NCBI GenBank assembly: GCA_963514005.1
Contig: OY740787.1
Coordinates: 84,940,001-85,004,000, forward strand
DNA: 64,000 bases
Reading direction: 5' to 3'
Source of the DNA: Raja brachyura
Taxonomy: Eukaryota
Of this stretch, positions 61-63,874 are shown piece after piece. The stretch's first letter is position 1, and each line of letters starts with the position of its first letter. The position numbers and the translations under genes were made by a program. Under the pieces are notes generated by a model, which saw only the letters and a program-made list of their open reading frames with translations, did no database searches and was not told the DNA's origin.

Positions 61-2350
61 GAGGCAGCATCTCTGGAGAACATGGATAGATAACATTTCA
101 GGTTGGGAAACTGATTATGTGAGAGGGGAAAGAAAGCTGATGAGGTGTGGGGCAGGACAAAGCCTGGTTGGGGTATAAGCAGATGGTTGCACAAAGGTCA
201 GAGATGAAACGACATACCTGTGAGACAAAAGGAGTGAAGAGTAGAAATGTAGGTAGAATGGGAGGGGACAAACAGGTATGAGTCCAGGTGGGGCAGAGGG
301 GAGAGCGGAGGCAGTAAGAATGGGGAGGTGGGTGATGTAGGCTGAGGGGGAGTTTTGTCATAAACTAATATTGGACAGTTCAATGTTCATACCATTGGGT
401 TGCCCGCTAAAATCTGTCCAGGACAGGTCCTTCCAGTTCCAGGTGAGACAGAGGTTCACTTGTACCTCCTCTCACCTTGTCTACTGCATCCAATGCTCCC
501 GATGTGATTTCCTTTACATCGGTGAGACCCAGCATAGACCAGGTGACCAATTAGGCCGAACACTTGCGCTCGATCTGTCAAGGCCTACTGGATCTCCCGG
601 TTGCTAACCATTTTAATTCCTCTTCCCATTCCCTTACTGACCTTTCTGTCTTGGGTTTCAACCACTGCCAGAATGAAGCCACTTGCAAACTGGAGGAACA
701 GCACCCCTTACCCTGCTTGGGTAACTGACAACCCAGTGGTATGAACATTGATTTCTCCAATTTTAGGATCACTACCATTTCTTGACCTCACTATCTCCAT
801 CGCAGGTGATAGACTTCTGACCGACATCCACTACAAACCCACTGACTCCCATGGCGATCTCGACTACTCTTCTTCCCACCCTGCTTCCTGTAAGGACTCC
901 ATCCCCTATTCCCAATTTCTCCGTCTACGCCACATCTGCTCCCAGGTTGAGGTGTTCCACACCAGGGCATCGGAAATGTCCTCATTCTTCAGAGAACAGG
1001 GATTCCCCTCCCCTACTATAGATGAGGCTCGCACCAGGGTCTCCCCCATACCCCGTAACGCTGCTCTCTCTCCCCATCCCCCCCACTCGCAACAAGGGCA
1101 GAGTCCTCTTGGTCCTCACCTTTCACCCCACTAGCCGTCACATACAACAAATAGTCCTCTGTCAGTTTCGCCACCTCCAACGTGACCCCACCACTCGCCC
1201 ATCTCCCCCCCTTGTCTGCTTTCCGCAAAGACCGCTCCCTCCATAAATCCCTTGTCAAATCTTCTCTTCCCTCCCGCACCACCCCTTCCAGGGCGCTTTC
1301 CCTTGCAACCTCAAGAGATGATACACTTGTCACTTTACCTTTCCCCCTCGACTCCATTCAAGGACCCAAGCAGTCTTTCCAGGTGCGACAGAGGTTCACC
1401 TGCATCTCCTCCAACTTCATCTATTGCATCCGCTGCTCAAGTTGTCAGCTGATCTGCATCGGTGAGACTAAGCGTAGACTTGGCGATCGTTTCGCCGAAC
1501 ACCTCCGCTCGGTCCGCATTAACCAACCTGACCTCCCGGTGGCTCAGCACTTCAACTTCCCCTCCCATTCCGTATCCGACCTCTCTGTCCTGGGCCTCCT
1601 CCATGGCCAGAGTGAGCAACACCGCAAATTGGAGGAACAGCACCTCATATTCCGCTTGGGCAGTCTGCACCCTAGTGGCATAAACATTGAATTCTCCCAA
1701 TTCCGTTAGCCCTTGCTGTCTCCTCCCCTTCCTAGCTCTCCCTCAGCACCTCGGGCTTCTCCTCTTCCTTTTACCTTTCTTCTCCCGCCCCAACCCCCAC
1801 CCTCCATCAATCAGAAAAGGGTTTCGGCCCGAAACGTTGCCTATTTCCTTCGCTTCATAGATGCTGCTGCACCCGCTGAGTTTCTCCAGCACTTTTGTCT
1901 ACTTTCGATTTTCTAGCATCTGCAGTTCCTTCTTACACCCTCCCTCCCTCTTCTTCCCTCAGCCTCCCCTCTCTGCCCATGCCACACCTGGACTTGCACC
2001 TATTTCCCCCTCCTCTCTCCACGCACATTTCTCCCTCTAGCTTCAAAAATTGCTAGAAAAATTGCTTCCATCATTTTGTCTCACACCTTCTGTCTTTTTA
2101 TCTCTGTCCTTTGACAAACCATCTGCCTCTCAGCCCCCTCCCCCCCTCACCTCCATCTATTACTTTTCAATCTCTGTCTTGCCCCTCCTCTCTTCCAGCT
2201 TACTTCCCCCAGCCCACTGTTAGTCTGAAGAAGGGCCCTGACCCGAAACATCACCCATCCATGTTTTCCAGCTGACTCACTGATCCATGTTATGCCAGCA
2301 CTTTGTATCTTTTTTTTTGTAAACCAGCATCTGCAGTTCCTTGAGTCTGC
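61..2350 (+). mobile_element. Penelope-like element fragment (outer copy) with inverted 5' pLTR piece, split by a second copy
   Basis: 61-400 is an inverted 3' tail; 407-766 encodes degenerate GIY-YIG (VYCIQCSRCDFLYIGET); the tail resumes at ~1936-2350 with CTGAAGA...GAAA and the gcatctgcagttcc end. Confidence 0.75.
767..1935 (+). mobile_element. Neptune-type Penelope-like element, 5'-truncated (RT C-terminus + GIY-YIG, frameshifted)
   Basis: LPFLDLTI...YKPTDSH..LDYSSSHP..CKDSIPYSQFLRLR.ICS, remnant Cys-rich linker (FPCN..R.YTC), IYCIRCSSCQLICIGETKRRLGDRFAEH...LEEQHLIFRLGSL.P.G.NIEF. Confidence 0.9.
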
Positions 2351-2436
2351 TCATTTGTATCAGTTCTGTGCGTTCGTCCTGGGAACTGCTCTGTTAAAAT
2401 CCAGCCCATGAAACAGCTTGGGCACAGGTCCATCTA

Positions 2437-4051: not shown

Positions 4052-4371
4052 TACATGGTAATTTCAACATTACATCTCGAACATCTGGATTTAAGAGAGA
4101 AATGCCCCTTTGTCAGTTGAAATTTGTCCTTCCAGATGGAGCAGTTTAAGCCAACACAAATCAAAACTTATACCTACATTTTTCATTTTAGTTTTGATGG
4201 CACAATTTTCATAGCTTATTTGAAAATCTAATATTGAATTTGAATTTATTCTTCAATTGTATTTTGTTCCTCAAATCAAACTGGGGTGGATATTTTAAAG
4301 TGGTTTATCTGAAGATTATGCTTGATAGGTTTAATATAATGTGCAGGGAGGTTTAAATGCTAATTTAAACC

Positions 4372-4925
4372 GGAGACAGACAAAAGGCTGGAATAGTTCA
4401 AGCATCTCTGTAGATAAGGAATAGGTGACGTTTCAGGTCGAGACCCTTCTTCAGACTGAGAATCAGGAGAAAGCGAACGAGAGATACAGTGGGTACTTAG
4501 GAGAAATTAATGGTAGATATGCTAAAAGCAACGATAATCAAAGAAATGTGGGGCACACAATAGGCCATTGCTGGCAGTGGGTTAGGTGATAACGAGTTAG
4601 AGATAGAGGAACTTACCAGGATGACAGTGAAAGTAGTACATCGACTAGGGTGGGAGACGGACGGAGGGAGAGGGGGATTCAAGGCTACTCATAGATAAAT
4701 AAATCAATATTCATACCGCTGGGCTGTAAGCTGCCCAAGCAAAATATGAGATGCTGTTCCTCCAATTTAGGTTTGGCCTCAGTCTGACAATGGAGGAGGC
4801 CCAGGACAGAAAGGCCAGTATGGGAATGGGAGGGGGAGTGAAAGTGTTTGGCAACTGGTAGATCACGTAGGCCGAGGTGGACTGAGTGAAGGTGTTCAGT
4901 GAAGTCTAGGCTTGGTTCAGCCAAT
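4372..4925 (-). mobile_element. Penelope-like 3' fragment
   Basis: ORF 4685-4945 gives EHLHSV...LPVAKHF...LEEQHLIFCLGSLQP.GMNID, followed by the pLTR tail. Confidence 0.85.
4423..4458 (-). ncRNA. minimal hammerhead ribozyme motif in Penelope pLTR
   Basis: agt-CUGAAGA-a-GGGUC-uc-GACCU-GAAA-cg-UC-acc: both catalytic boxes, stem II, palindromic ACGU in place of helix III, GUC cleavage triplet. Confidence 0.7.
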
Positions 4926-5044
4926 CGACGGCTCCATGTAACCACTATATCATCACATGCATTTACTCTAGAATCTTCCCAGATACTTGTCTCTGTCAGA
5001 AAGCTTCTTGTTCAAGTCCTTATCTGGAATTCTACCACCAAAGA

Positions 5045-6170: not shown

Positions 6171-6454
6171 ATTTTGCTTCAGTGGGTCCAACACTAATAA
6201 TTTAAAGGGGATTGTCACAATTAAAGCATGGGCCTACTTTTAAAAAAAAGATATTGTTTGCAGATTTTAGAACAAGCTCCAAAGTACACATTGGAATTTA
6301 CGCTGCTGATGTGCTGAACTCAGAACACCATGACAATGATGAAGTTACTCAAATCAATTCACACAGTGGAATATGAGTGGGATAGCTGCGTGGTGGTGCT
6401 ACTGCCTCACAGATCCAGTGACCTGGGTTCGATCCTAACCTAAGGTTACGATTA

Positions 6455-6625
6455 GCCACAAAAAAGCTGGTGTAACTCAGCGGGTCAGACAGCACCCTGA
6501 GACCCTTCTTCAGACCCGAAACGTTATATATCATTTTTCTACAGAGATACTGTCTGACCCGCTGAGTTACTCCAGCATTTTGTGTCTATCTGCGGTTTAA
6601 ACCAGCATCTGCAGTTCGTCCCTAC
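6455..6625. mobile_element. Penelope pLTR fold-back element
   Basis: gctggtgtaactcagcgggtcagacagca ... tgtctgacccgctgagttactccagc inverted arms around a hammerhead remnant. Confidence 0.75.
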
Positions 6626-8398: not shown

Positions 8399-8627
8399 CT
8401 AATTATGAAATGAAATGAAATAAAAGCAGACCGTTCAGCAAATACTCTACAAGTCAGGCAGCATCCGTGCAGTCAGAAACAGAAGAAGGGCCCCAACCCA
8501 AAACATGGCCTGTCCACATCCTTCACGGATGCTCCCTGACCTGGTGAGTTGGTGGTCGCTTGAAACAGTTAATGTTCTTTTTCAGTGACCTCACCTGAAT
8601 TTTAATAGTTTTTCTGGTTTTAACCAG

Positions 8628-11485: not shown

Positions 11486-11819
11486 TAAGGACAAAATCAT
11501 GCCCTTTGGGAAATTGGACTGGCTACTCTTGTGAACTGTTCAGAATACTTTGCCTGATAATTTCCCCAATGTTAGGGACACAGCTGATGACACTGCCATT
11601 CACGCATTGACCATATCTGCCCTCTCAGCCATAACTTGGAGCCTGCGGAAGGGTCCCGAAACAAAACCTTGTCTGCCATTTCCTTGCACAGATATTGCCT
11701 GGCCCACTGAGTTCCTCCAGCAGTTTGTTTTATGGTTATAATTTAAAGATAAAAGTGTAATCTATAACCAAATGGAACAGTCAGTATGACTTTCAGCACA
11801 TTGTTGACTTTATCTAACA

Positions 11820-12510
11820 TAGACAGAAAATGCTTGAGTAACTCAGCGGGTCAGACAGCATCTCTGGAGAAAAGGAATAGGTGATGTTTCGGGTTAAGAC
11901 CCTTCGTTAGACAGAGTCAGGGGAAAGGGAAACAAGATATATAGACAGTGATGTAGCGAGATATAGAACACATGAATGAAATAAATGCAAAAAGTAACAA
12001 TGATAAAGGAAACAGGACATTGTTAGCTGTGGGCTAGGTGAATATGGGTACAGACAGAGAGACCCAACAAGACAAGCTGGTACAATTTGCGTGGGGGAGG
12101 GAAAGAGAGAGGGAATGCAGGGGTTACCTGAAGTAAGAGAACTCAATATTCATACCATTGGGCAGTCACGGTGGCACAGCGGTAGAGTTGCTGCCTTGCA
12201 GCAAAATGCAGCGCCAGAGACCTGGGTTCGATCCCGACTACGGGTGCTGTCTGTATGGAGTTTGTACGTTCTCCCTGTGATCTGCGTGGGTTTTATAGAC
12301 AATAGGGTTTTGGTATCCCCCCACACTCCAAAGACGTACAGGTTTGTAGGTTAATTGGCTTGATAAAAAAAAAGTAAAATTGTCCAAGTTGGTGATATGC
12401 AGAGTACTGCCCTGCCGACTACAAAATTCAGAAGGTTCAGAAGGATTGTAAGCTGCCGAAGCAAAATATGAGATGCTGTTCCTTCAACTTGCATTTAGCC
12501 TCCACCACGT
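11820..12510 (-). mobile_element. Penelope-like 3' fragment split by a SINE
   Basis: pLTR tail at 11820-12159; GIY-YIG end resumes near 12445. Confidence 0.75.
12160..12385 (+). mobile_element. HE1-type V-SINE, 3'-truncated
   Basis: tRNA head with gggttcgatccc B-box and V-domain. Confidence 0.85.
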
Positions 12511-13499: not shown

Positions 13500-13668
13500 G
13501 AGAACTGCAGGTGCTGGTTTAAATCGAAGGTAGACCCAAATTGCTGGAGTAACTGAGCGGGACAAGGCAGCATCTGGAGTCTAAAGAAGGGTCTCGACTC
13601 GAAACGTCACCCATTCCTTCTCTCCAGAGATGCTGCCTGTCCCGCTGAGTTACTCCAGCATTTTGTGT
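13500..13668. mobile_element. Penelope pLTR fold-back element
   Basis: Inverted arms with central gtctaaagaagggtctcgactcgaaacgtcacc. Confidence 0.8.
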
Positions 13669-13832
13669 CTGCAGGCTGTGATTCTAGCCGTTGGCTGGCG
13701 AAGCCTGGCTCAGTAGGTTCGACAGGTGGCCCTGAACTCTGGGTGGCATCAGAATGTTGCTCTCTTGTGGGGCCAGAACTAGTCTGCGGGTTCGGGCTAC
13801 TGATGTCCCTCCGTGAGGAGATAAATAGTTCT

Positions 13833-15187: not shown

Positions 15188-15385
15188 CTGTAGGAAGGAA
15201 CTGCAGATGCTGGTTTAAACCGAAGATAGACACAAAAAGCTGGAGTAACTCAGCGGGACAGGCAGCAAACATCTCTGGAGAGAAGAAATGGGTGACGTTT
15301 TGGGTTGAGACCCTTCTTCGGACTGGAGAAGGGTCTCGACCCGAAATATCACCCATTCCTTCTCTCCAGAGATGCTGCCTGTCTC
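15188..15385. mobile_element. Penelope pLTR fold-back element
   Basis: Head-to-head arms centred on cttcttcggact|ggagaagggtctcgacccgaaa. Confidence 0.82.
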
Positions 15386-16419
15386 ACTATTTATTCTTCT
15401 AAGTTCCAGCAAGCAAAGGCACAACCTGCTAAATTCTTCCTCGCATGATATTCCCTTCATCCCAGGCATCAACACGGAGGACCTTCCCTGAACTGTCTCC
15501 ATTGAAAGTACACCTCCTCCTAAATAAGGAGACCAAAACTGCGCACGATATTCCAGCTGTGGTACCACAGCTGTCACAAGTCTTCCCCACTCACACACTC
15601 CATTCCCTTTCTAATAAAAGGCAGCATTCCACTTGCCATCTTAATAACTTGCTACACCTGCATGCTAACTTGCTCTGTTTCATGTCAACGGACACCCATA
15701 TCCCTTGGTACAGCAACATCCTGAGGTCTCACTATTAAAGTCATATTCAGGATTTCTATTCTTCCTGATTGAAGTCTCTTCTCCCCATTCGCCATTCCAT
15801 TTTTTACTGTGATTTGGATCGCTTTAGTATTTTCTGCAGTCAAAATATCTTTGGTCAAAATCTTTTGCCACCTCCTTACATACCGTTCTTCATTGCTCAC
15901 ATTCATCCTTCCATCGACCCACATTTGCAAGGGCTACATTCTTCCTTTCTGTACACCTGGTGAAGTGTCTCCAGTGTGCATTGTGTATCCACATCAGCCT
16001 GGTAGTGGTAAAATATCCTCGGCTGAGTCCACTGGAGCATGGGCTAACTAAACCCCAAGCCGCAACACCTCTGCCCTGTGTTCTTTGTAACTGGCTCTGA
16101 TTGCAGTTCTTAAATTGTCCATATAACCACCACCCTCTGACCTAATCTGCACAGCTTTAGTGGTGCCTGTGTCTTAGATGGTGTGTTGTACCCCTTATCA
16201 TTGTTGCCTCCTCCTCTTCTTCCCCTTCCTTCGTTCCCTGCTTTATCTCCACCTCTGTGTCCCCTTCTTCTGGAGTTCAAGACACTCATCAATGTCCTGT
16301 AAAGATAACACAGTAGGTGCATTTATAAGCTGCATTCAAAACATCTGCATGATGATGCATCAGCGCTGATGTTAATGGGGGTATTTGCAATTAATCAAAT
16401 CAAAAGCAATATAATAATT

Positions 16420-17640: not shown

Positions 17641-17960
17641 GGTCCTGTGGGGAATGTATCAGGGCACTATTATAGGGCCCCTTTGTCTACATCATTGGTG
17701 ATCCTCGGACTATCTTTAATTGGACTTTACTGGCTTTACCTTGCACTAAACGTTATTCTCTCATGTGTAGGAAGGAACTGCAGATGCTGGTTTAAATCGA
17801 AGATAGACAAACAAAATTGGAGTAACTCAGCGGGTCAGGCAGCATCTCCGGAGAGAAGGAATGGGTGATGTTTCGGGTCAAGAGCCTCCTTCAGATCATG
17901 TATCTCTACACTGGAAATGGCTCGATTGTAATCATGTATTGTCTTTCTGCTGACTGGTTA

Positions 17961-19754: not shown

Positions 19755-20600
19755 CGGACTCTGGAATCTCGATCAACAAGCCAATCGTTGGAGGAACTCA
19801 GCGGGTCAGGCAGCATCTGTGGAGGGAAATGGAAAGACAACGTTTCGGTTCGGGGCCCTTCTTCAGACGGATGGAGAAAGGGTGGGAGAAAGCTGGAAAA
19901 GAGAAGTTGGGATGGGCAAAGCTTGGAAAATAACAGTTGGATACAGGTGGTGAAGGGGCGATTGGAAGAAGAATGGACATAGTGACAAGGCTAGAGTGAA
20001 GTGGAGCCAAAAGGATGTCGCATAAGGGAAGAAGAGGAGGGGAGTGAAATGTAAATATGGAGGGTGGGATATGGGTGGAAGTCGACGGAGGGAATGGGAA
20101 AGGGGGGCGAAATGGGAGCTCAGAGATGGGAGGAGTGGGAGATGACCCGAAGGTGGGAGGGGGTTGGGGGGGGGGGGGGGGTAGACTGGAGAGACGGGAA
20201 TGATGGGAGAAATGTTTGCAACAGGGAGGAGAGCTGTTGGAGTAGGAGTGGGGAGAAAGAGAAGTACAGGGGTCTGGGAGTATTACTTGACATTGAAGAG
20301 TTTATTGTTCACACCATTGAGTTGTAAGCTGCCCGAACGGAATATGAGGTCCGGTATTTCCAGATTGCGTGTGGCCTCACACTGGCAAGGGAGGAGGTGA
20401 AGGGCAGAAACCTCAGTAAGGGAAGGGGAAATGGGGTAAAAATGGATAGCAACCAGGACGTCCAGTTGACGGACCAAGCTCAAGTGTTGGGCAAAGTCTA
20501 TGCTTGGTCTTGCCGATGAAGAGACGGTCACATCGGGAGCAGCAGCGATAGTAGATGAGGGGGCAAGAGGCACAAGTGACCCTCTATCCCTCCCTCCTGG
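19755..20600 (-). mobile_element. Penelope-like 3' fragment (older)
   Basis: Degenerate GIY-YIG end (LIFRSGSLQLNGVN) and a pLTR with CTGAAGA...GAAACGTT at 19836-19870. Confidence 0.75.
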
Positions 20601-24100: not shown

Positions 24101-26261
24101 CGGCAAAGCTGACCAACCATATCTTCTGTTTATTGGGTAGCTGTGCTTACTAGGGACTGCTGCTTGTCATCCAATTTCTCACATGCTCCAATGACAACTC
24201 CTCACAAACCTGCAGCTTTTCTTTTACTTCTTCTGAAATGTTCCCATGTTCTAGCTGAAAATTAATTGTCCCAAGTTCAGGAGAACTCACATCCTCAAGG
24301 GACACAATAAAATGCTGAAGATAGACACAAAATGCTGGAGTAACTCAGCGGGTCAGGCAGCATCTCAGGAATAGGTGATGCTTAAAGTGGAGAACCTTGT
24401 TCAGAGTGCAGATTGCTCAGCTGTGATAGTAACTAACTCAACTATCTCCATATATCAGCTCGTTCCATATACCTATCTCCTTTGGATGCCCAGGATTAAT
24501 TTCTGATCTCCCAACCTACTTCGTACTTTTTTCAATCTGCACTTTCTCTGCAGCTGTGACACTATATTCTGGCATTCTGTTTCGTTTTCTCTCTTGCACT
24601 ACCTTGGTGTACTTACGCATGGTATGATTTTTCTGGGTTGCATGTAAATCAAAGTTTTTCACTGCACCTCTGTGCATCTGACAATAATAAAACCAATACC
24701 AATCACATTACTCACATATAAGAAAAACCTGTGGCAATATGTATAAACTCTTGGTTGATGCAGCAGGCTAAGGTGATTTTGTTACTTGACAGATGAATTA
24801 ACACTGATGGCTGTTGTTTATCATTCTCAGACATTAAAAGCATGCTTTGGCTAAGACCATTTACCTGCTCCAAAATACCCTGATGTTATATTGACAGCAG
24901 AGAGCTAGAAATGAAGGACTCTGGTGATTTCAACTGTGGCAAGCAAATGGTGTAAACAAACTTGGGCCCTCATTTTAGATTTGAGAGCTCCAGGGCATCA
25001 GGTGACAAGCTGGTGTGACATGGTGTGTGCTCCCAGTTCGCTACAGCAGCATGGCACCCACCTTATTAGTTGAATACTTTGATAGTACGACAAATATTAA
25101 TACAAGTCAGTTAGCTAACGTAGATTTCAGATGCTATGTGAACCATCCACCAAGATGTGTCACAGCAGATAAACAAGCAAACTTTAAAGGAGCGCCTTGT
25201 GTTTTAAGGTTATTACAAACACCTTGTCACAGTACATTCAAGTAGCAATGTTACAACATTTTGAGATTTTAAAAATCAAGTCTGCAATTTATCCCATCAG
25301 ATAAAGCATAAAAAGAAGTTTAATTTGACACCTAATTCACTTTCATATCTTCAGTATTAAGAAAGTTATGACCATTTTCATACTCGGAAATTAGCATCTT
25401 GTTCCCCATTGCCTTTCAATGAACTTAACTCAAAAGCTGTGATCTAGAACCGTTAAAAGCCCATATCTTTCTTAAAAATTAAGAGAACTCAATGAAATTT
25501 TCAGTTATTATAGATTGAAGCATTCTGAAACAAATATGAAACAATCTTACTTGGATGACCTGAAATTAAAGCATATAATTAGTTAGTTATCTAATTGTAG
25601 CTAATTACAAAATTCAATGAGTAGATCTAAACATCTATCCATTTCTTAAGAAAAGATAAACTTTTTTTAAATTGCCTAAAGGCCCTGTCTCACGGTGCGA
25701 GTTGACACACGAGTGACCCAGAGTGACAGACTCGTGGTTGTGTACGATATTCCAAGTTGATGTGCAAGTGTTTGAGGCGAGTTCCCACGGGTATGGTAAT
25801 CTGCGATGTTCCGAGTTTGTCTCCAGAGTTACCAAGTTCCCCTCCCGTTACACTTGAGCCAACCGTGAATGAAGGTATGTTTTAATAAAGCAACAATGTT
25901 AAAGAAAACATCTCCATCCTGCGGCTTTGAGTTAAAGATAGAATTCAGCGCGGCTGCATCTATTTATATAACCTATAAAAGGGAAAATGCGCACCCTCCA
26001 GTGCCAGAGCAGTTATACTTATGATTTGTTAGAAACGCACATCACGTAGTTAGAAGACCAGCTGGCGAAGGTTTGTTATATTTGGAGGGGCAAGTGAAAT
26101 ATAATGATGATAGGTCTGAGGTGTTGCACTTTAGGAGCGCTGAAAAATTCGGACATGTGCAATGAGTGGTAGCAACATTGGGAATATCGTATCAACAAGG
26201 AACGTTGTTGTACAAGTGAAAACAAATTACTTGAAGGCAACATCACAACTGGATAAAAAAT

Positions 26262-26445
26262 AGACACAACGTGCCGGAGTAACTCCGTGGGTCAGGCAGC
26301 ATCTGTGGAGAAAAAGGGTGGGTGTCGTTTCGTTAGACGGGTCCGGATCCAAAACATTTCTCCAGAAATACTGCCTGATCTATGGAGTTACTCGGGCACT
26401 TTGTGTCTATCTTTGGTATAAACCAGCATCTGCAGTTATATGTTT
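26262..26445. mobile_element. Penelope pLTR fold-back element (degenerate)
   Basis: tagacacaacgtgccggagtaactcc ... ggagttactcgggcactttgtgtcta inverted arms. Confidence 0.7.
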
Positions 26446-35850: not shown

Positions 35851-36110
35851 CGAGTTCAGAATGATATTGCCACTGGCAAACTGAGAATTTCATCCTGAGA
35901 ATCTCAAGGGCAAACATAACATTGAAAATCAGTGCAAATAATCGAGATCCAAAGAACATGAAGAACTAATGCCATGTCCATATCTTGTGTTTTTCAGATA
36001 CCTCTGGACTTATCGCAGGAGGAATGTCACTTTCAGACACTGAATACCGAGAAATTACAGGTAAATCACCAAGTAAATCTCATGATATTCCAAGAGACCA
36101 AGGGGTGAAA

Positions 36111-38075: not shown

Positions 38076-38399
38076 CAGAGTCAGTGTGTGGAGTTACTCC
38101 AGCATTTTGTGTCAATCAACAGGGGTATTGTGCCACTCCAACTTGTGCAACCCAGTTTAAATCCCACTATTTTTTCAGGAGGCAGTGATCAGCGAACATA
38201 AGCAGTGGGGCACAAACAAGAGGTCTTTCTCCTACCAAAGGGACCAGGTTGGACACTCTTGTCTTGCCCAGGCATACCAACACATTGCCCCATCTGCAGC
38301 TAGACATTTTGTGCCACTTCAATGGGAACTTTTGAGGTGGTGCCATCTGTGCAGTCAGCTCTGCCAGGTCATCCAGCCCCATCCATCAGATAGTTGAAG

Positions 38400-38615
38400 T
38401 CGAAGATTGACACAAAATGCTGGAGTAATTCAGCGGGACAGGCAGCATCTCTGGAGTGAAGGAATGGGTCATGTTTCGGGTCAGACTGAAGAAGGGTCTT
38501 GACCTGAAACGTCTCCCATTCCTTCTCTCTAGAGATGCTGCCTGTCCCGCTGAGTTACTCCAGCTTTTTGTATCTATCTTCGGTTTAAACCAGCATCTGC
38601 AGTTCCTTCCTACAC
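38400..38615. mobile_element. Penelope pLTR fold-back element with TSD-like cagatagttgaagtc
   Basis: Inverted arms; cagatagttgaagtc at 38387-38401 and 38616-38630. Confidence 0.85.
38483..38516 (+). ncRNA. minimal hammerhead ribozyme motif
   Basis: aga-CUGAAGA-a-GGGUC-uu-GACCU-GAAA-cg-UC-ucc. Confidence 0.6.
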
Positions 38616-38920: not shown

Positions 38921-40264
38921 GTTTCATGGCCAAATGTTGGCCATGGAGTAGCTACCATTGATTTAATTATCCAAGCAAGAATCAATCTTCAAACCATTTA
39001 CAAATGTAACTTACATGCAGGAATCAATGTTGAGATTACAAGAATGGTACAATAATAGCGTTGCCTGTGAAGGGAGCAAGCTATCTTCTCACAACAGGAT
39101 GGCACTTTAGACCTATGCTAGGGAAACAGAAAGGAGTTGTATCTCAAGCACCTGCATGGGAAGATGAAGTGGGGGGGGGGGGGGGGGGGGGTGGTATAGT
39201 TAGTGAAGAGGAAGGAGTGAGCTCGGTGTCACCAGAGGAGCAGGATCTGTTACAGAGGACGCAGGGGAACCACTGATTGTGGAAGGTTGAGAGCAGAAAT
39301 TCAGGAAATCGAAGAAAGGGCGAGGCACATCATAGACCTTCATTCCGAATAACAGTGGAATGAGTGGATCTCTGGTATGCACGCCATAACAATGTGAAGA
39401 GGAGAAGAAATAACACCTTTTATCTTTTGAGTCTGAAGAAGGGTCCTGACCCAAAATGTCACTTATCCATGTTCTCCAGAGATGCTGCTTGAGTTCCCCC
39501 AGCAGTCTGTTTGTTGTTCCACATTCCAGCATCTGCAGTCTCTTATGGCTCCATGACAATAACTTAGTGATATTCCTGGGTAATTTCTTCTCTCCTACGG
39601 AGCAATACACTGTGGAATGCTGCGTTTTCAGACCTCGGACAAAATCCCTGCTACCTGCTCCAAGGTAAATCTGTGCTTCCTGGTAGCCTCCAAAATCAGC
39701 TCAGACCAATTTTTAGACACCATTCTTGCCTGTCGCTCTATCATTAGGTGAGCGGACCAGTGTGGTTCAAAACATCTCTCGAAAAAAATATCCGACAAGA
39801 AGCCTGAAGCGTCAAGCAACATCTGCTTTGCTCAGCTGGACACAGCATGCCAGGGTAGAGGCCACATACTCAATTCATTTTAAGCCCTTAGGTGTTACAT
39901 GGCTGTGTGTGAAGACATTCCTTTGATTCAATCTTTGCACGTGGAGAAATTCTCAATCTGGAGAGGAAATATAACAGACGGCGAGAGTCAGATCATGTTT
40001 TCCTATCCGCTGAGAGATTCTGAGTTCAATTTCCCCTCTTTCCACCCGAAGCATCGGAACAGAAATGACCACGTAACCTACATTCACTTAAATATGGTCA
40101 TTACTTCTCTGTGTATAATTCACCCTGGTGCAGTAATACCTGAAGTGTAACCTCCGCCAACACATACTTATAAAAGTAATTGAACATAACTCAAATTGGT
40201 TTGATTTCTACTTCATTTATTTTCATGTAAATGTAAAAGTGCATTGTTGAGATAAATCACCAAT

Positions 40265-41457: not shown

Positions 41458-41830
41458 CACACAGCTTGGGCAGCTTACAACCCAGCGGTATGAACATTGA
41501 TTGCTCTAGCTTCAAGTAACCCTTGCTTTCCCTCTCTCTCTCGTCCCTCCCCCACCCTAGTTCTCCAACTAGTTTCACTGTCCTCCTGATTAATTTTATT
41601 GTTTGTATGCCTCGTTGTCAGCCAACATTCTACATTTCCTTGATCATCGTCTGCTTTGATCTGTCGTTTTCACACCTTACATTCTCTGTGTTCCCTTCCA
41701 CATCTCTCGTTTTACTCTACCCTAACTTTCAGTCTGAAGAAGGGTCTCAAACTGAAACGTCACCCATCCCTTCTCTCCAGAGATGCTGCCTGTCCCGCTG
41801 AGTTCCTCCAGCACTTTGTGTCTATCTTTG
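41458..41830 (+). mobile_element. Penelope-like 3' fragment
   Basis: LGSLQPSGMNID followed by pLTR with CTGAAGA...GAAACGTC. Confidence 0.82.
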
Positions 41831-42124
41831 GTTTTGGTTTTCACGAGTCAGGTGGGACAACTTCCCTGGTGATTTGGAGCCATTATAATTACTTCTCACC
41901 ACGCCCACAAAACAATATCAATCCACAAATAAATTTGCCTGAGCTCATTCTAAAATAATACTCTCATTTTATTAGAGTATTCGGATTCTTGTTGATTTGT
42001 TTTAAATACTAAATTTTGGTTTTGATACAGATCCTGTAGCAGTCTCCAAAGGATTAACATTGGGTTAGTGAGGATGGGAATTTGTTTCAGATTTCACAAG
42101 ATAATTTCTGCCATACAGCTTCCT

Positions 42125-42426: not shown

Positions 42427-43469
42427 TGTTATAAAGCATTAATGTAATATTTCATGCACACTTGATAGGAATATAATAATACCTCTAATCAGACAATTGA
42501 TTTCCTTTGCTCTCCATCCTGCTCATGCAGGGAGCCAAAGACCAACACATCTGCGCCAACTTTAACTTACTGAGATTAATACATCCTGAAGTCTACCCTC
42601 TTCAGAGACTGTGCAACAATTCTCTCTTCAAAGTCTAGAAAAAAAACCTCATCCCTTATTTCAATTCCCCATTAAATAACTGATATTACCTCCATGTTTG
42701 GAGATTCTTGTGGAACTGTCGTGTGTAGCAGTGAAGTCCAATTCACAATTATCCATTTTCAGATATGTTATTGTTTCCTTTGGAAATCTAAACCAACACA
42801 ATTAAATGTTCATCTCAAGAAGAAAAAAATAAATATTTGTAAATCTTTGCAAAAATAGGAAAAGCTGGAATTGCTAAAGCAGATTTGTAAAGATCTGAAG
42901 AAAGACGAATTAATGTGCCAGGTGCAGGCTTTTCAATCATTTTTGATGAAAGGTCCGAGTCTGAAATATTAACTTATTTTGTTACTGTACAGATGCTGAC
43001 ATGTGTGTTGTGTATTTCCAGCACTTTCTGCTATTTCATTCTGGGTGCAATTCAATCATTTCTGTATTTCTTTTTGACGTGAACAAATGTTATTAACACA
43101 CAATGTGTGCCTACCAGAGCTAATTTCTTCAACATGAGGCGAGGAAGAGACATAAGGAATAGTTTTGGTTTCTGTTTTATCATGTATTGGAAATGTACTT
43201 CCATCTTTTGAAATCGCTCATAATACAAACAAAATGTCTCACTACATGAAGGCAAACCAATCTAAGCCTAGTGGGATTAGTAATAGGTCACACTAGCAAA
43301 AAACCTACACAGCCTCCATCAATTGAATAATCCCTGGTTCTGCAAAAAACTATGGCTCTTTAGTCTTAATTCAATACAATGTGCTACCTCAATTAAGTAA
43401 CTAATGTGGGATGGTCAGCATTAATGTGACGATATGTATATAATGGTAGGTATATCAAATTATTTATTT

Positions 43470-43945
43470 AGATGTCAGTTGATCTATATCGGTGAGACCA
43501 AGCGTAGGCTTGGCGATCATTTCACCGAACACCTCAGCTCGGTCTGCATTAACCAACCTGATCGCCCCGTGGCTCAGCACTTCAACTCCCCCTCCCATTC
43601 CGAATCTGACCTTTCTGTCCTGGGCCTCCTCCATGGCCAGAGTGAGCACCAGTGGAAATTGGAGAAGCAGCACCTCATATTCCGCTTGAGCAATCCCACT
43701 AGATCCGCTTGAGCAATCTGCACCCTAGCGGCATAAACATTGACTTCTACAATTTCCGGTAGCCCTTGCTGTCTCCTCCCCTTCTCAGCTCTCCCTCAGC
43801 CCTCTGGCTCCTCCTCTTCCTTTCTTCTTCTCGCCTCCCCCAACCCCCACTCTACATCAGTCTGAAGAAGGGTTTCAGCCCAAAACGTTGCCTATTTCCT
43901 TCGCTCCATAGATGCTGAGTTTCTCCAGTACTTTTGTCCATCTTC
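43470..43945 (+). mobile_element. Neptune-type Penelope 3' fragment (same subfamily as 767-1935)
   Basis: CQLIYIGETKRRLGDHFTEH...LEKQHLIFRL; near-identical to 1440-1910. Confidence 0.9.
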
Positions 43946-44216
43946 AAATTATTTATCTCTTTCATCTGATCAATTAAGATGACTGCATCGAGTTAAAAAA
44001 TATAACAACAAACAGACCAATATTGTCTCCTGTAAACAGACAGAATCAGATCCACTCAGACTAGTGACTGTAATAAATAGGTATGGTCATTGGTATCTGA
44101 ATCTCCAATTGCAAATGAACCTGTCACTGGATTGAAATAAAACAAGAAAACTTGTTTCAGCATTAATGGTTGATAGAGGTACTAATGTGATAATGGTATG
44201 AATGAATAGAAGGATA

Positions 44217-44495: not shown

Positions 44496-45664
44496 AAAAA
44501 AAACAAAATAAAAATCATGTTCCCATCCCAGCCTTAAATACATATCCGAATGGATAATTACCTAACACCTCCAGGAACAGAACCTCCCTAACACATAGGA
44601 TCTATTGAATGTGCACCCCGAACCAGTATCTAAAACTATAGTGAACACTTTAGAAATGATAAAACGTTGATCTAATTTCTAGTTTTAAACTGAACTATTC
44701 CACTGCCGTTGTACACCGTGAATATCAACCACACAATCTGATTATCATTTTGTTGGGATTTTTATGGGGCTTAATTAGAGAATGTTATTTTTGTAAGTGG
44801 GTAGGATCTGAGAAGGACACAAAACATTGCTGGATGTATATTTTTCAACCAAAATAAAAAGCAAGCACCAGTGGAAAAATAATAGGATGCAGCACATATT
44901 AATTTGCATACCTAAATCTGGGATGAAAATTATAACCTTGGATGGAAATAAATACATTTCCTTGACCGTATATTCGTGGTAGGCTACATTTGTGTCCGTC
45001 AAAACATTATTTAAAAAGTAAGAAGTATGTTACTGACCAAAAAAAAAAAAATTTAATTGTGCATTGTGCTTGCAGATCTTTTCTGGTTAACCAAACATGT
45101 AGTTAGTGGCAAAGAGGAGGATAATGGTCTAACTAACCAACATATAGCATTCTGATGAAAGGTCGTCAACTTGATGCATCAACTCTACTTTTCTCTCGAA
45201 GATAGATAGATACAAAATGCTGGAGTAACAGCGGGACAGGCAGAATCTCTGGAGGGAAGGAATGGATGGCGTTTCAGGTCAAGACCCTTCTTCGGACTGA
45301 GAGTCAGGGGAGAAGGAGACTGTGGGATATCGATGAGACCCTTGTGAGGGCCTCATCTATGATGGAAGAGAGGAACCCCCATTCCCTAAAGAATGAGGAC
45401 ATCTCCACTTCTCTCCACTGATACTACCTGAAAAGCTGCATATTTCCAGCACCTATTTCAAATTTCTGGCATTTTGCAGTTGTTGTCATCAATATAAATT
45501 TTGTTTTGCCAGGAGCAGCATTAATAGGACAAAGGAAAGGAGACCTTCCTCCAGCATCAGTCATCTCCACTCCTATGACAGTATCTTCAGTCAATTAGTA
45601 GGTCAACACAATAATCATACCACTACCTCAATCTGTCATTAAATGACTTCAGCACAACAGCAGC

Positions 45665-50080: not shown

Positions 50081-50499
50081 CATGATACAGTGAAAGTGTT
50101 TGTTATGCATACTATCCAGGCAAATCATATCAAACATGAGTACAACAAATATTGTAAAAAGTAAAAGGAAACAGTACAGAATATATTGTTACAGCTACAA
50201 AGAAAGTGCAGATAAAAGGAGAGCAAGGTCTGCAACAATGTAGATTGGGAGATAAGTAATAGATCCTTAGCATATGAGAGGTCCGGTTAGGTGTCTTATC
50301 ACAGCAGGGAAAAAGCTCTTCTTCAATCTGGCATGCTTTAAAAAAGCAGCTTCATCCTTGTAACAGCAATGAAATAATAATCAGATCATCTTCTGGTGAA
50401 GGAACCAGAACATTGAAGGAGAGCAAGGTTTTCCCCCCCCCCCCTAATTAATAGCTAGAAATTGTTTGCACATCACCAATACAAAACATTGCAGAGTTG

Positions 50500-50722
50500 G
50501 CACAAAAAGATGGAGTAACTCGGAGGGTCAGACAGCATCTCTGGAGAAAAGGAATATGTAACGTTTCGGGTCGAGACCTTTCTTCAGGTCTGAACCCAAA
50601 GCGGGTCTGAAGAAGGGTCTCAACCCGAAATGTCATCCTTTTCTCCGGAGATGTTCTCTGACCCGCTGAGTTACTCCAGCTTTTTGTGTCTATCTTCTGT
50701 TTAAACCAGCATCAGCAGTTCC
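50500..50722. mobile_element. Penelope pLTR fold-back with a hammerhead motif on each strand
   Basis: Minus 50557-50590 CTGAAGAaaggtctcgacccGAAAcgTT; plus 50603-50638 CTGAAGAagggtctcaacccGAAAtgTC. Confidence 0.82.
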
Positions 50723-50723
50723 T

Positions 50724-51287
50724 TCAAGTTTCAAGTTTCAAGATTCAAGAGAGTTTATTGTCATGTGTTCCAGATAGGACAATGAAATTCGTGCTTTGCT
50801 TCAGCACATTGCAGAATATTGTAGGCATAAATACAGAACAGATCAGTGTGTCCATATACCATTGAATATATATATACACACATAAATAAATAAACTGATA
50901 AAGTGCAATAGGCTATTAATGTTCAGAGTTTTGTTTGAGTTGAGTTTAATAGTCTGATGGCTGTGGGGAATAAGCTATTCCTGAACCTGGATGTTGTAGA
51001 TTTCAGGCTCCTGTACCTTCTACCTGAAGGTAGTGGGGAGATGAGTGTGTGGCCAGGATGGTGTGGGTCCTTGATGATGCTGCCAGCCTTTTTGAGGCAG
51101 CGACTGCGATAGATCCCCTCGATGATAGGGAGGTCAGAGCCGATGATGGACTGGGCAGTGTTTACAACTTCTTGTAGTCTTTTCCGCTCCTGGGCGCTAA
51201 AGTTGCCGAACCAAGCCACGATGCAACCGGTCAGCATGCTCTCCACTGTGCACCTGTAGAAGTTCGAGAGAGTCCTCGTTGACATTC
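50724..51287 (-). mobile_element. Rex1/Babar LINE 3' end
   Basis: TLSNFYRCTVESMLTGCIVAWFGN...IIKDPHHPGH...FRNSLFPTAIRLLN; (cttgaa)n tail; same family as 60154-61632. Confidence 0.92.
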
Positions 51288-51877: not shown

Positions 51878-52025
51878 TTAAGAAGGAACTGCAGATGCTG
51901 GAAAATCGAAGTTAGAAACACTGCGGGTGAGGCAGCATCTATAGAACAAAGGAAATAGGCAACATTTCTGGTCAAAACCGTTCTTCAGACTATATCCTTC
52001 GCTCCATAGATGCTGCCTCACCTGC
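51878..52025. mobile_element. Penelope pLTR fold-back element
   Basis: ggtgaggcagcatctat ... atagatgctgcctcacc. Confidence 0.75.
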
Positions 52026-53151
52026 TCCTATATTCTTGTGTTGTGGCTGTTGATAGAGTTGTCATGTGACTAAATTCCAAGAGAAATACCAAACAAAGCT
52101 AAAACAAGGGAAGATTAACACAGTTCTTTAAAACAATGCCCTTGTTTAAGGAAGGTTACAGATCGAAGATAGATATGAACCACCTGATGGTCACACACAC
52201 CATAAATTCAGTTAATTATTATTAGCTTCAAGGAAGTACTGTTAAACTTGCTTTAACCCAGGATGTACCCTATGCATCTAATAATGAGTTCAACAGGTAC
52301 TGTTTTTTTTTTAATTACAATCATATATAACTTTACAGCACAGAAATATGCAATAGAATTTCAGTAAGTAGTCCTGCAGATCGATGGAATTAGGGGACCA
52401 TTATACTTCAGTGATCAGATTTGGACCAGAACTTGCAAAGAATAAAGTAAGATTTCAAGGTCTTATGTATATATTACAACTCTGCTCACTGCAGGTAGAA
52501 ACATGCATGTTTAAGCAGAGTTCTTCTCAACAACATGTACATTTGCGCAGCAGCCTTCTTCTGCCACTATTCTGCTCATATTAAAATATTTTGCAATGGC
52601 ACTGCAAACTAAAATAAGTTTGCAATGACACTGCAGTGAATGTTAGTTTTAATCATGCAAGGAGACTGTCAAAACATCCAACCTCTCTAAAATGGGCAAC
52701 ATTGGATCGGCCATCAGTAACATAACAAATCCTAGCGAGGTAAGGGAGGAAAAGACTGGTACGGTGTATAGTGGACAACCACTCCATGCTTGGCCACCTC
52801 ACACACTTTTTTAAAAGTTGATTTTTAGCCCGAAAGTAATGTAATCTGGGCAGCAAGAATACAGTGCAAAAAAGGTTTCAGCATCAAATATTAATATCAC
52901 TAAATCTTAAATATCCTACAGCCATTTCAGTGAGTATTTATAACTTGTTTTTATTCAATGACTCAAGAGTAACAAATATTTATCATGAAAATACAGATCA
53001 ATATAAAATGGCTTTGGTTGCCAACGAGAGTCGTTACAGCAACTCCTCAGTTCAAAGATATTCTGGTGTAAGTATCTATGCTCGTCCACATTCAAACATT
53101 TATAAGAATGAAGTTGAACATCACTAAGCATATGAGTTCCTTCATGTGTAT

Positions 53152-54876: not shown

Positions 54877-54877
54877 T

Positions 54878-58014: not shown

Positions 58015-59225
58015 TGGACTTAGTGCAAAAGTACAACTGGTGAAGATCATTAGTTTAACCTCCAACCTGAGCAGGTGTGCCTGGTGTGTTGGTGAGTAGC
58101 AGAATTTAAGGCCGGGTATGGAGGCTGAATACAATAGGTTAAGAAAAGATTAGTGTACACACGGGTGCTTGATGTAGAAACAAAAAACTGCAGATGCTGG
58201 ATAATACACGAAAGGTCACCAAGTGCTGCAGTAACTCAGCAGGTCAGGCAGCATCTCTGGAGAACATGGATACGTAACATTTCAGTTTGAGACTCCTCTT
58301 CAGATCCTGTGTCCTTATGGGTGTTTGCCGTTTGGTGTGCACGCAGTATATAGCACGCAGTGCTATAGTTCTCTACGAATCTTATGACCTGTAGAACGGC
58401 AAATTAGCACGTCAGTCTTCAGAGAGAGAGAGGAAGTATTTTCCAAGGTGCAGAATCGGTGAGTCAGTGGTGAAGCAATGGTGCTTGGCACTGATCTCAA
58501 AGAAAGCTTCCTACAAAATTAATCAAGAGACCCGAGGCAAGAACTCCCTCTGTTCACGTGTTGGGTCCTGCCAGTCGTACATTCAAGGAGAACGCTGGAG
58601 TTCAGCAGTTACGTCATCAGATTAGGTGAAGAGTCAACAACACATTTACAGAAAGGAAATCAGGAGTAAAATGATGCGCACTTTAAGAAACTGTTTGAAA
58701 TGCTTAACAGAGTGTAAAAATAAGTCAGACCATACTCAAGATGAAAGCAGTTGAAATACTTTTAAAGATTTATTTTTGAAAGGAATCCATGACATTTAAA
58801 AATCCATGATATTTATGTGAGGAAATAATATAATTCTAATATGATTTTTTTTTAGGCAAAATAACATGCTCAATAGTTACCCAAGGCAGAGTATATTATT
58901 AAAATTTGATTTAGTCCTCAAAGCATAACATTCGCAGGGTATTTAACAGGAAGATTGATTTGTACATAGCTTATGTCAGGTGATTCCCCTCGATTCAGTT
59001 GGAGAAGACTGCAACAACCTAGCTTGTGGGCACAGACAGAATCCCGGATAGTATCTTCACATTTCTGTGTAGGAAGGAACTGCGGATGCTGGTTTACACC
59101 AATGATAGAGACAAAATGCTGGAGTAACTCAGCGGAACAGGCAGTATCCATGGAGAGAAGGAATGGGTGATGTTTCATTGTCACCTTTCCCCCCCAGCTA
59201 ACAATGAACTATTCACATTTGTGTT

Positions 59226-60028: not shown

Positions 60029-60153
60029 CTAAAATGCAAAAAAAATTACATTTTCGATAGATGCTACTTTTCAGAAACAGTGTTTGCTTTCAATGCAAAG
60101 TTTGGTTTCAAAAATACATCTTGATCTTTCCCTGATTCACAGTAGTGCACAGT

Positions 60154-61632: not shown

Positions 61633-61849
61633 GGCAGCATGCACCCAATGGGTATCTGTGTTATAAAATTAAAAACTTGAAAAGGGTTTTTACAAATGCT
61701 CATCAATCTGAAATATTAAAACAGCTCATTTTTCTATAAATGTTGCCTGTCCTGCTGAGTACCTCGAGCATTTTCTGTTTTTGTTTGCTTATCATTATCA
61801 TTATAACTCAACAATAGACAGCTTTATCATTATAACTCAACAATAGACA

Positions 61850-62270
61850 TTTCACAAACTATTATCCAAATCTTCGTCAAAGAAGAATATCCAAAATTTT
61901 GGAAAGGCCCTATAACCCCCACAATTAAAATGTGGATTATGGAAATGTCGGAGACCCTACACCTGGAAAGAATCAGATTTGTCTTAATGGACAAACAAGA
62001 ACTTTTTGTTAGAATATGGTCTTCATTCATCGATTATTTGAAGGGGTAGATTGATTTGGCACAGGAACCTAACTGAAACTTGAACTAAGGATTAGATGAA
62101 AAGTTTTACTTTATAATCTTCGAACCTATCCCTAATTATTTATTATTATAAATCATTCCATTCTTTTTTTTAAATCTTGACATTTGTGGGGTTTTTTCTT
62201 TCTTTCTTACTTTCTATCTATTTAAAAAAAATTAGAATCAGAATTAATCCACAATTGATAATATTAATAA
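61850..62270 (+). mobile_element. L1/Tx1-like 3' fragment (same family as 8975-9680)
   Basis: KFWKGPITPTIKMWIMEMSETLHLERIRFVLMDK...IWSSFIDYLKG*. Confidence 0.8.
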
Positions 62271-63874
62271 AGTAAGATCCTAAGAAGCGTTTTTTTTTTA
62301 AATGAGAGAGATGTAGAGTGGTGGCAAGAGAAGGAAAATTGGGGACTAAAGATTAGGCCGCAATAAATGCAATGGAAGCCGGGAATATTCAAGATGACAG
62401 AAACAGGAATTTCTGAGGAGATTGCAGAGATAGGGAGAGTGAAAGCCTCAAATCTGAATATTAAAACACATGCATTTCAGTCAGTAAGTCAAGATGGAAT
62501 ATAAACCATGTGCTGAATGAGCTCAGAATTAACCCGTGTTGCAAAGTGGCGATCAGGCAGGAATGCAAAGTATAATGGTCACGTCTAAAATTGGCAAAGA
62601 CATGGTGGTGAATTTGCTCAGCAAACAGTGTGCAACCAGGAAGGAGGAAATGGCAGGTGACATTTTGAAATGGACAGTGTGGACCATAGGGTCTGTTCCT
62701 GTGCTGAACTGTTCCAAATGACGGAGCAAATAGTGGCTGTGAAACTCATCAGATGCAAATGGTCAGATTCAGCAGCTGAACAAAGGGAGAAAGACAAACT
62801 TTGAGAGAAGGCGTATACAGTATGCTACTCCTTAAATTCCCCTTTCCCCCTTAAAGTAAGTATTCCAGACTATGACCAAATGAGAGTGGCCTAAATATAA
62901 CCAAAAAACTCAATTTCCTTGTTTATTCAACTTTATTTCGGGAGAGTTTTGCTTGGGATTCAAGACAGTCTCAACTGTCCTCCACTTAACCAAGTCTGCA
63001 GAGCATCACCTTTTCCTTGATTAAATGCTACCAGTAACTTCATATGAAACTATAAACCCACTACAAATATACCTTTTCAATTGACAAACCACTGATAAAA
63101 GCCCCAGAAAGGGTGCAGGTGAAGAACCTTTCTATTCTTTGGAATAAGTTCTGTCGAACTTGCTGCAAAAATGTTGCTCTTAAAGGTTGAATTCGATGTT
63201 CAATTATTCATCAAAATATATCATTATCACTTTTGTGCCAACAAGATGGGTCTCGGCCTGAAACATCACCCATGCCTTCTCTCCAGAGGTGCTGCCTGGC
63301 CCGATGTTACTCCAGCATTTTGTGTCTCTCTTAAGTGTAAACTAGCATCTGCAGTTCCTTCCTACACATATATAGATTCTCACACAGTTTCTGCTTTGGA
63401 ATTAAGAGGACTTGAAGTCCTGTACATAAACATTTAGTCTTAATTCATTTTGTAGGACTAAGTGGGCCTTTGGCTAGGTGACGAGATAACATACATAATA
63501 TATGACCTGGCATATTTCAAGTGAAAATAGTATTTGAATCAAACAATATTCCTGGAATCCCCTAAATCTCCTGATGAAAATTGAGCTCTGAAGTATTATG
63601 TAACACTTCATAATCAACATCTAAAAGCTGCAAACCTACCTGACGAAGATACAGAAGCATTAATAACTACGTAATTCAATTCAATTAAGGAAAATGGAGG
63701 GAATTGGGGCAATTTCCTCGGACTAAGTAAGAACAGATGTCACATTAATGGTATGAATGGATTATGGAGATGAAGGCAGTGGTGGTACACTTGGAAACCT
63801 AAATTTTCTGAGTGTAATTCTGACACTCACTTATTTCAATCACACAATCATAGATTCCAATGCAGGATACCAAC

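What the first reader, a model, noticed from the sequence alone, without database searches (positions are those of the whole stretch)
61..63370. Window-wide family of short Penelope-derived repeats built around a minimal hammerhead ribozyme
Seen: about twenty intact or decayed copies of consensus GT-CTGAAGA-A-GGGTC-TC-GACCC-GAAA-CG-TC-ACC (e.g. 2225, 4423-, 13577, 15290, 19836-, 35050-, 35755, 38486, 39431, 41734, 43861, 50557-, 50603), all in the same ~120-bp pLTR. Known: CUGANGA/GAAA/UH is the hammerhead core; Penelope pLTRs carry minimal type-I hammerheads with a palindromic tetranucleotide replacing helix III and are thought to cleave as dimers; the extra A after CUGANGA also occurs in the newt satellite hammerhead. 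Inference: most copies have no coding sequence, so they may be an abundant non-autonomous ribozyme-bearing family in this genome.
Basis: partly seen in the sequence, partly recalled or inferred. Interest (0 to 1): 0.72.

Follow-up and report, generated by a model that had tools for sequence, protein, structure and literature searches.

The report
Penelope retrotransposon stubs with hammerhead motif
These short repeats are the hammerhead-bearing end pieces of a known kind of protein-coding jumping gene that has roughly a million such pieces in this genome; they are likely dead by-products rather than a separate ribozyme family, but their ends likely record where the element's RNA starts and how it is copied.

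Summary
The repeat is real: 40 arms at about 31 sites in the window, about 1.16 million genome-wide by extrapolation. It is the hammerhead-plus-tail segment of Neptune-type Penelope retrotransposons; 4 window arms follow a GIY-YIG remnant, and a 3980-bp tandem unit was found. The motif fits the published minimal hammerhead, yet none of 26 scorable window copies is fully intact, and cleavage is untested. A separate non-autonomous family is not supported: all 8 subfamilies include UTR- or ORF-linked members, and same-strand tandems are barely enriched. The ends are the informative part. 201 of 397 stubs start within -5..+4 of the core, only 10 near the cut site. Arms pair head-to-head, and 65 of 74 pairs have one long and one short arm. 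16 of 30 ORF-start loci read start..X, oligo-A, extra G, start..tail. Best reading: a capped RNA begins at helix I, is primed internally at two sites and is copied uncut to its 5' end; the cDNA then integrates, anneals to its twin or jumps template. This scan noted the same family, start point and jump before on other pieces of this genome.

The parts
56..108 (-). partial arm (no core start)
404..764 (+). older GIY-YIG remnant; probably the parent of the arm at 2222, split from it by the younger insertion (inferred)
745..1709 (+). broken Penelope ORF 3' part (RT C-terminus, cysteine linker, GIY-YIG)
1811..1936 (+). arm about 100 nt after the ORF stop
2222..2343 (+). arm with pyrimidine-rich UTR upstream, older subfamily
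4345..4457 (-). arm linked to GIY-YIG remnant at 4700-5029
4700..5029 (-). GIY-YIG remnant
6452..6624 (.). head-to-head inverted pair; 12-bp direct repeat in the flanks
8434..8551 (.). decayed inverted pair
11642..11737 (+). decayed solo arm
11794..11912 (-). arm with about 230 nt of element UTR upstream
13501..13672 (.). head-to-head inverted pair
15191..15388 (.). head-to-head inverted pair; 13-bp direct repeat at the ends
17768..17896 (-). solo long stub starting at the core
19772..19868 (-). arm of a diverged subfamily linked to GIY-YIG remnant at 20307-20583
20307..20583 (-). GIY-YIG remnant
24304..24407 (-). solo stub
26251..26442 (.). head-to-head inverted pair
29486..29698 (.). head-to-head inverted pair
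32337..32536 (.). head-to-head inverted pair
34984..35082 (-). arm with element UTR upstream
35754..35873 (+). arm of the diverged subfamily with UTR upstream
38091..38143 (+). tail fragment
38385..38612 (.). head-to-head inverted pair; 15-bp direct repeat at the ends
39430..39546 (+). solo long stub starting at the core
41731..41839 (+). arm with about 270 nt of element sequence upstream
42944..43031 (+). weak, old arm
43473..43951 (+). GIY-YIG remnant, UTR and arm (43858-43951)
45199..45298 (-). arm with a short piece of UTR
50494..50725 (.). head-to-head inverted pair
51880..52026 (.). head-to-head inverted pair; 11-bp direct repeat at the ends
58180..58304 (-). solo long stub starting at the core
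59070..59189 (-). solo stub, core partly lost
61733..61787 (+). weak fragment
63243..63365 (+). solo long stub

Best explanation
The repeats are the hammerhead-plus-tail end of Neptune-type Penelope retrotransposons, and the short ones are likely dead insertions copied from the uncut 5' end of the autonomous element's RNA. Shown: the block sits between the ORF stop of one unit and the ATG of the next; copies end 3' at two points (about +93 and +128, counting the C of CUGA as 0) and begin mostly at -5..+4; they occur solo, as inverted pairs with one long and one short arm, or as start..X joined to a second start..tail. Inferred: a capped transcript starts at about -4, so helix I is the RNA's first bases; the protein nicks both target strands and primes internally at +93 and +128; copying to the 5' end gives a strong-stop cDNA, which is joined to the target (solo stub), anneals to the cDNA on the other strand through the self-complementary CAG-N-CTG end (palindrome), or jumps onto the oligo-adenylated 3' end of an element RNA (direct repeat). 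The hammerhead is probably under constraint only in source elements and probably cuts rarely or late; in the stubs it decays.
For: ORF link: 35 of 48 GIY-YIG ends in 1.38 Mb have an arm within 600 nt, across proteins 37-95% identical to the query; 3980-bp tandem unit and ATG about 166 nt after the core; RT and GIY-YIG Pfam hits, below gathering score. 5' ends: 201 of 397 arms without UTR start at -5..+4, 10 at +26..+30 around the cut site; exact genome counts for the young subfamily are 21,300 for 0..+45 against 8,618 for -11..+37. Pairs: 99 minus/plus neighbours within -60..+59 against about 5 expected from background; 65 of 74 classifiable pairs are long/short against 37 expected, p 5e-12; direct repeats of 8 bp or more flank 16 of 72 pairs against 1 control and 16 of 109 solo stubs against 2; 12 of the 13 pairs at the modal spacing join on CAG-T/A-CTG. 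Jumps: 16 of 30 ORF-start loci plus L109; 13 of 17 junctions end in a non-templated G (p 1e-5) and 11 of 17 hold an A run, in the order body, A, G, start; G before -4 occurs 773 times against 428 for A. In vitro, the anole Poseidon protein cuts and extends both strands, starts at two internal sites and uses uncut RNA (PMC11167929, parts 1-2 of 4 read).
Against: No raw RNA reads were available, so neither the start site, the cap nor expression is shown (searches gave contigs only). Starts are spread over about 10 nt and about half of the stubs begin further inside. The genome-wide G excess is only 1.8-fold and T and C were not counted. The 30 ORF-start loci were the best hits to one query and 4 lie in one array. 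Only a minority of old copies show a flanking direct repeat. The anole element is of another clade and its start sites lie in the ORF, here they lie before the ATG.
Confidence: 0.68

Rival explanations
1. The stubs are a self-propagating non-autonomous family (SINE- or retrozyme-like) with an active dimer-cleaving hammerhead, transcribed from an internal promoter and mobilised by the Penelope protein.
For: Very high copy number, 568 arms in 1.32 Mb; 397 of 509 scored arms lack UTR; sharp 5' start; 45 of 324 random arms have a fully intact motif; non-LTR retrozymes derive from pLTRs (bioRxiv 10.64898/2026.07.22.740005, parts 1-3 of 5 read).
Against: All 8 clusters have UTR/ORF-linked members; young stubs match the autonomous element at 98-100%; same-strand neighbours at 100-299 nt number 29 against about 18-22 background; pair junctions vary from site to site; no pile-up at the cut site; inverted pairs fold as hairpins of -115 to -153 kcal/mol.
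Confidence: 0.1
2. The stubs are ordinary 5'-truncated copies primed at the 3' tail of long or multimeric RNA; reverse transcription stalls or folds back at the CAG-N-CTG palindrome or at RNA structure, so -4 is a pause site and not the RNA's start.
For: About 40% of intact young arms continue upstream; the near-palindrome lies exactly at the pile-up; 5' truncation with inverted pLTR and one-sided tail is described for PLEs (PMC8557442, passages).
Against: It does not explain the non-templated G, nor copies that begin at -4, run into the ORF and rejoin at -4 through an A run.
Confidence: 0.15
3. The start..X/start..tail copies come from circular or pre-ligated RNA, or the fixed 5' boundary is a 3' splice site, not a capped end with a template jump.
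For: A pyrimidine tract and CAG precede the core in all subfamilies; in Drosophila virilis the intron ends at helix I and circles are proposed (PMC4209133, parts 1-2 of 4 read); L1 chimeras can come from pre-ligated RNA (PMC8857657, passages).
Against: No shared upstream exon: 114 of 134 solo stubs have no in-register upstream homologue; no GT..AG joint among the 15 best joints shown of 75; the join is at -4, not at the cut site; the outer 5' end also stops at -4.
Confidence: 0.07

Closest known systems
Minimal type I hammerheads in pLTRs of metazoan PLEs (Cervera and De la Pena 2014, PMC4209133; parts 1-2 of 4 read, figures and supplements not seen)
   Same: CUGANGA and GAAA core, extra base between 9 and 10.1, G10.1-C11.1 pair, palindromic 15.2-16.2, no helix III, most motifs dispersed as single copies from truncated PLEs, some pairs on opposite strands.
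   Different: Helix II is 4 bp (up to 5) and helix I only 2 bp, against 7-8 and 4-5 bp for the Schistosoma families; the core is nearly invariant across subfamilies here; the RNA start is inferred to lie inside helix I.
Neptune-clade EN+ Penelope-like elements (PMC8557442, passages; PMC3846280, parts 2-3 of 5)
   Same: Single ORF with RT, cysteine-rich linker and C-terminal GIY-YIG; partial tandems; inverted 5'-truncated copies; 30-40 bp tail at one end; target-site duplications.
   Different: About a million stubs; a fixed 5' boundary; palindromes made of two stubs only; direct repeats built from the element's 5' part with A-run and G junctions. Clade assigned by the linker motif, no tree built.
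Poseidon element of Anolis carolinensis, PAc (Frangieh et al. 2024, PMC11167929; parts 1-2 of 4)
   Same: Two adjacent internal start sites that define the tail, both strands cut and extended, hammerhead cleavage not needed for insertion.
   Different: In PAc the ORF starts in stem II and the start sites lie in the ORF; here both lie in the 5' UTR. The read parts describe no strong-stop product, jump or long/short pairing.
Non-LTR retrozymes (bioRxiv 10.64898/2026.07.22.740005, parts 1-3 of 5; PMC7229834, search listing only)
   Same: Short, non-coding, pLTR-related, hammerhead-bearing.
   Different: Defined by tandem units each with a hammerhead; here tandems are rare and inverted pairs common.
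End-to-end template jumping by R2 reverse transcriptase (PMC8857657, passages) and retroviral strong-stop DNA (recalled)
   Same: Run-off to the template's 5' end, extra bases, continuation on a new 3' end.
   Different: Inferred here from genomic junctions only; priming is on target DNA at an internal site.

Membership tests
EN+ Penelope-like element | One ORF with RT and C-terminal GIY-YIG | tested here: met
   963-aa and 863-aa frames with RVT_1 and GIY-YIG hits, E 1e-4 to 2e-3, below gathering score; window remnants match them
EN+ Penelope-like element | Partial-tandem pLTR, inverted copies, tail at one end | tested here: met
Neptune clade | Cysteine-rich linker between RT and endonuclease | tested here: met
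   CxxxxCxxC seen in the translations; feature named in PMC8557442 and PMC3846280
Neptune clade | RT phylogeny groups with Neptune | not tested
   no reference Neptune proteins were fetched
Minimal type I hammerhead | Conserved core bases, H17 not G | tested here: met
   0 of 11 core positions vary among subfamilies against 16 of 53 flank positions, p 0.052; H17 is C or U
Minimal type I hammerhead | Helix II with G10.1-C11.1, extra base at 9/10.1, palindromic 15.2-16.2 | tested here: met
   changes fall in loop II or keep a wobble pair
Minimal type I hammerhead | Helix I of several base pairs and two-sided covariation | tested here: inconclusive
   2 bp only; 1.1 is A or G opposite U; no two-sided change among 8 cluster majorities; the fold is not the minimum-energy one
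Minimal type I hammerhead | Self-cleavage after NUH, as a dimer | not testable with these tools
   needs an assay; 10 of 397 stub ends lie at +26..+30
Non-LTR retrozyme / non-autonomous family | Tandem units each with a hammerhead | tested here: not met
Non-LTR retrozyme / non-autonomous family | Lineages independent of ORF-bearing copies | tested here: not met
   8 of 8 clusters of 5 or more have UTR/ORF-linked members by a generous rule; 241 of 289 near-complete arms fell in these clusters
Non-LTR retrozyme / non-autonomous family | Circular RNA intermediates | not testable with these tools
   only contigs were offered

The most novel reading that the evidence does not exclude
Penelope elements replicate through a retrovirus-like strong-stop step on target DNA: a capped RNA that begins in hammerhead helix I is primed at two internal sites, one per nicked strand, and the run-off cDNAs either anneal head-to-head or jump end-to-end onto another RNA. 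This would explain the one-sided tail, inverted pLTRs and direct pLTRs in one scheme, with the hammerhead acting as a 5'-terminal decapping or promoter-overlapping element instead of a unit-length cutter.
Probability: 0.45. Interest if true: 0.68.

Novelty: new member of a known kind. Interest (0 to 1): 0.42.

Why it matters
The motif itself is published. What could matter is mechanism: PMC8557442 (passages) names the formation of tandem and inverted pLTR structures as unresolved. About 21,000 exact young copies and a million older arms (about 4% of sampled DNA) give a natural record with sharp predictions: start at -4, priming at +93 and +128 on opposite strands, annealing at CAG-N-CTG, and jumps onto oligo-A ends. 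These can be tested with the published in vitro Poseidon assay. The inverted pairs also explain false microRNA-precursor hits.

Tried and rejected
Rfam scan: no hammerhead family; microRNA hits are the inverted pairs. Pfam found nothing on the short window remnants (0 of 4) and the PDB sequence search found 0. DNA searches with the arm alone returned nothing because common words are skipped. Folding gave no support for a special structure: z from -1.3 to +1.8 for 6 arms; the hammerhead fold scores -4.2 against -7.2 kcal/mol as monomer and -6.7 against -21.5 as a modelled dimer, which is weak evidence either way. Laid contigs from 8 runs could not show starts or cuts. My first UTR library missed one older subfamily, which inflated the solo 5' pile-up; one search corrects for it with a generous rule (112 of 509 arms set aside as UTR-linked). 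A splice-acceptor reading and a cleavage-generated 5' end were considered and found little support. Lunse et al. (PMC5785218) was not held; its content is known to me only through a review passage. Searches found no paper describing this family in cartilaginous fish or a strong-stop or jump model for Penelope; subscription journals, Repbase and supplements were not seen, so absence is not shown. The reading of an extra G as a copied cap is recalled, not from a call.
Full report
Observation. A profile built from window copies finds 43 hits; the final profile finds 40 arms at about 31 sites and none on reversed sequence. Of 26 window arms that cover the core, 12 keep the scored core bases and none keeps core, CG palindrome and full helix II together. 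Rfam gives no hammerhead hit. In 132 stretches of 10 kb taken at round positions on large contigs there are 568 arms (4.30 +/- 0.28 per 10 kb, 4.1% of bases), about 1.16 million if scaled to 2.70 Gb. The window is typical of the genome.

Parent element. Window 745-1709 is a broken RT plus GIY-YIG frame, followed about 100 nt later by the arm at 1811. Its relatives are abundant (122,827 first-look candidates) and include frames of 963 and 863 aa with RT and GIY-YIG hits and a CxxxxCxxC linker, the Neptune mark. L127 holds a 3980-bp unit from core to core, with the ATG about 166 nt after the core; a four-unit array of period 3965 lies on contig C18. 35 of 48 GIY-YIG ends in the sample have an arm within 600 nt, across proteins 37-95% identical to the query and spacers of 59-448 nt. 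So the repeat is the non-coding stretch from the hammerhead to the tail.

The hammerhead. The layout matches the minimal type I motif of PMC4209133. A structural descriptor gives 47 hits in 1.38 Mb, all inside arms, and 0 on reversed sequence. Among subfamily majorities none of 11 core positions varies against 16 of 53 flank positions (p 0.052); the changes inside the motif are in loop II, a stem II wobble, H17 (C or U) and 1.1 (A or G opposite U). Against this: no two-sided covariation, helix I is 2 bp, long flank stretches are just as invariant, and the fold is not favoured by energy. Within copies the core decays: non-CpG core 5.2% against 7.4% in invariant flank columns, but G12 31% and C11.1 24% against 21% for flank CpG. 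Constraint, if any, acts on source elements. 45 of 324 random arms are fully intact.

Not a separate family. All 8 clusters of five or more arms contain UTR- or ORF-linked members beside solo stubs and pairs. Young stubs are 98-100% identical to the autonomous unit. Same-strand neighbours at 100-299 nt are 29 against about 18-22 from background, whereas minus/plus neighbours within -60..+59 are 99 against about 5. Five inverted pairs from the window fold as hairpins of -115 to -153 kcal/mol, which would bury both motifs.

5' ends. Counting the C of CUGA as 0, the cut would fall after +27. Of 509 scored arms, 112 were set aside as UTR-linked by a generous rule; of the other 397, 201 start at -5..+4 and 10 at +26..+30. 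Exact genome counts for the young subfamily agree: 21,300 for 0..+45 and 8,618 for -11..+37. The template was therefore mostly uncut, as for the anole element in vitro.

3' ends and pairs. Arms end near +93 or +128. Of 116 pairs, 74 could be classed at both ends: 65 long/short, 7 short/short, 2 long/long, against 37, 21 and 16 expected (p 5e-12). Direct repeats of 8 bp or more flank 16 of 72 pairs (1 in shifted controls) and 16 of 109 solo stubs (2 in controls), so a pair is one insertion. At the modal spacing 12 of 13 pairs join on CAG-T-CTG or CAG-A-CTG, as expected if two cDNA ends anneal across a central mismatch. The anole protein cuts and extends both strands and starts at two internal sites.

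Jump structures. A search with the ORF start gave 30 loci; 16 read start..X followed at once by start..tail, with X from 315 to 1289, and one more (L109, X 2190) came. In 13 of 17 junctions the base before the second start is a G that the element does not have there (p 1e-5), and 11 of 17 hold a run of two or more A between body and G. Most are flanked by direct repeats seen by eye. Genome-wide, G precedes -4 773 times and A 428 times; T and C were not counted. Contigs of another organism show three joints back to the start through one or more A (run X12, RNA status a guess). The order body, A run, G, start is what a cDNA would give if it ran to a capped 5' end and continued on an oligo-adenylated 3' end. 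That an extra G marks a copied cap is recalled; end-to-end jumping is shown for R2.

Mechanism. Shown: position in the element, two 3' ends, the 5' pile-up, pair asymmetry, junction letters. Inferred: capped start at about -4, priming at +93 and +128 on opposite target strands, strong-stop cDNA, and three outcomes (solo stub, palindrome, jump). Not shown: transcription, cap, cleavage. Rivals are a pause site at the near-palindrome (0.15), a self-propagating family (0.10), and circular, ligated or spliced RNA (0.07).

Comparison and verdict. Hammerheads in Penelope pLTRs, dispersed truncated copies, inverted pLTRs and the one-sided tail are published. Seven paper searches found no account of this family or of a strong-stop and jump model, within the limits of the library; supplements and figures were not seen. 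This scan's earlier notes on the same genome reached the same reading on start point and jump (consulted after my own analysis; not independent support). The finding as posed is a new member of a known kind; its value lies in testable mechanistic signatures. Interest 0.42.

Noticed in passing
window 404-2343: A younger Penelope copy (745-1936) seems to have inserted just after the stop of an older one, separating that element's GIY-YIG remnant (404-764) from its UTR and arm (1940-2343).
   Followed up: partly
window 59592-60089 (-): Open frame with a weak formiminotransferase (FTCD) hit, E 0.056; probably an exon of a host gene.
   Followed up: partly
window 2430-4058: Tc1-type transposase remnant between 227-bp inverted repeats, 94% complementary.
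   Followed up: partly
window 36474-37442 (-): 322-aa reverse transcriptase remnant (RVT_1); Gypsy-like by recalled motifs.
   Followed up: no
window 46333-47150 and 55985-56637: Two arrays of the same 48-bp minisatellite, 9 kb apart, each with a related 79-bp flank.
   Followed up: no
window 6734, 7923, 12167, 13835, 34503, 44223: Abundant tRNA-like SINE family; its resemblance to SINEs of cartilaginous fish is recalled, not tested.
   Followed up: no
window 19559-19634 (-): Sub-threshold CPEB3 ribozyme match, 27.7 bits against 35; probably chance.
   Followed up: no
G000:C18:46360022-46377241 (L274-L276): Head-to-tail array of four 3965-bp units of the young element, beginning 5'-truncated and ending at +128.
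   Followed up: partly
L163:41 and L234:445: The same inverted pair with the same junction and flank occurs at two loci, probably copied inside another repeat.
   Followed up: no
arm positions +48..+55 and the matching stretch before the long end: An 8-bp stem, invariant in 7 of 7 cluster majorities, encloses the +93 end; a candidate protein-binding or priming structure, with no covariation to support it.
   Followed up: partly
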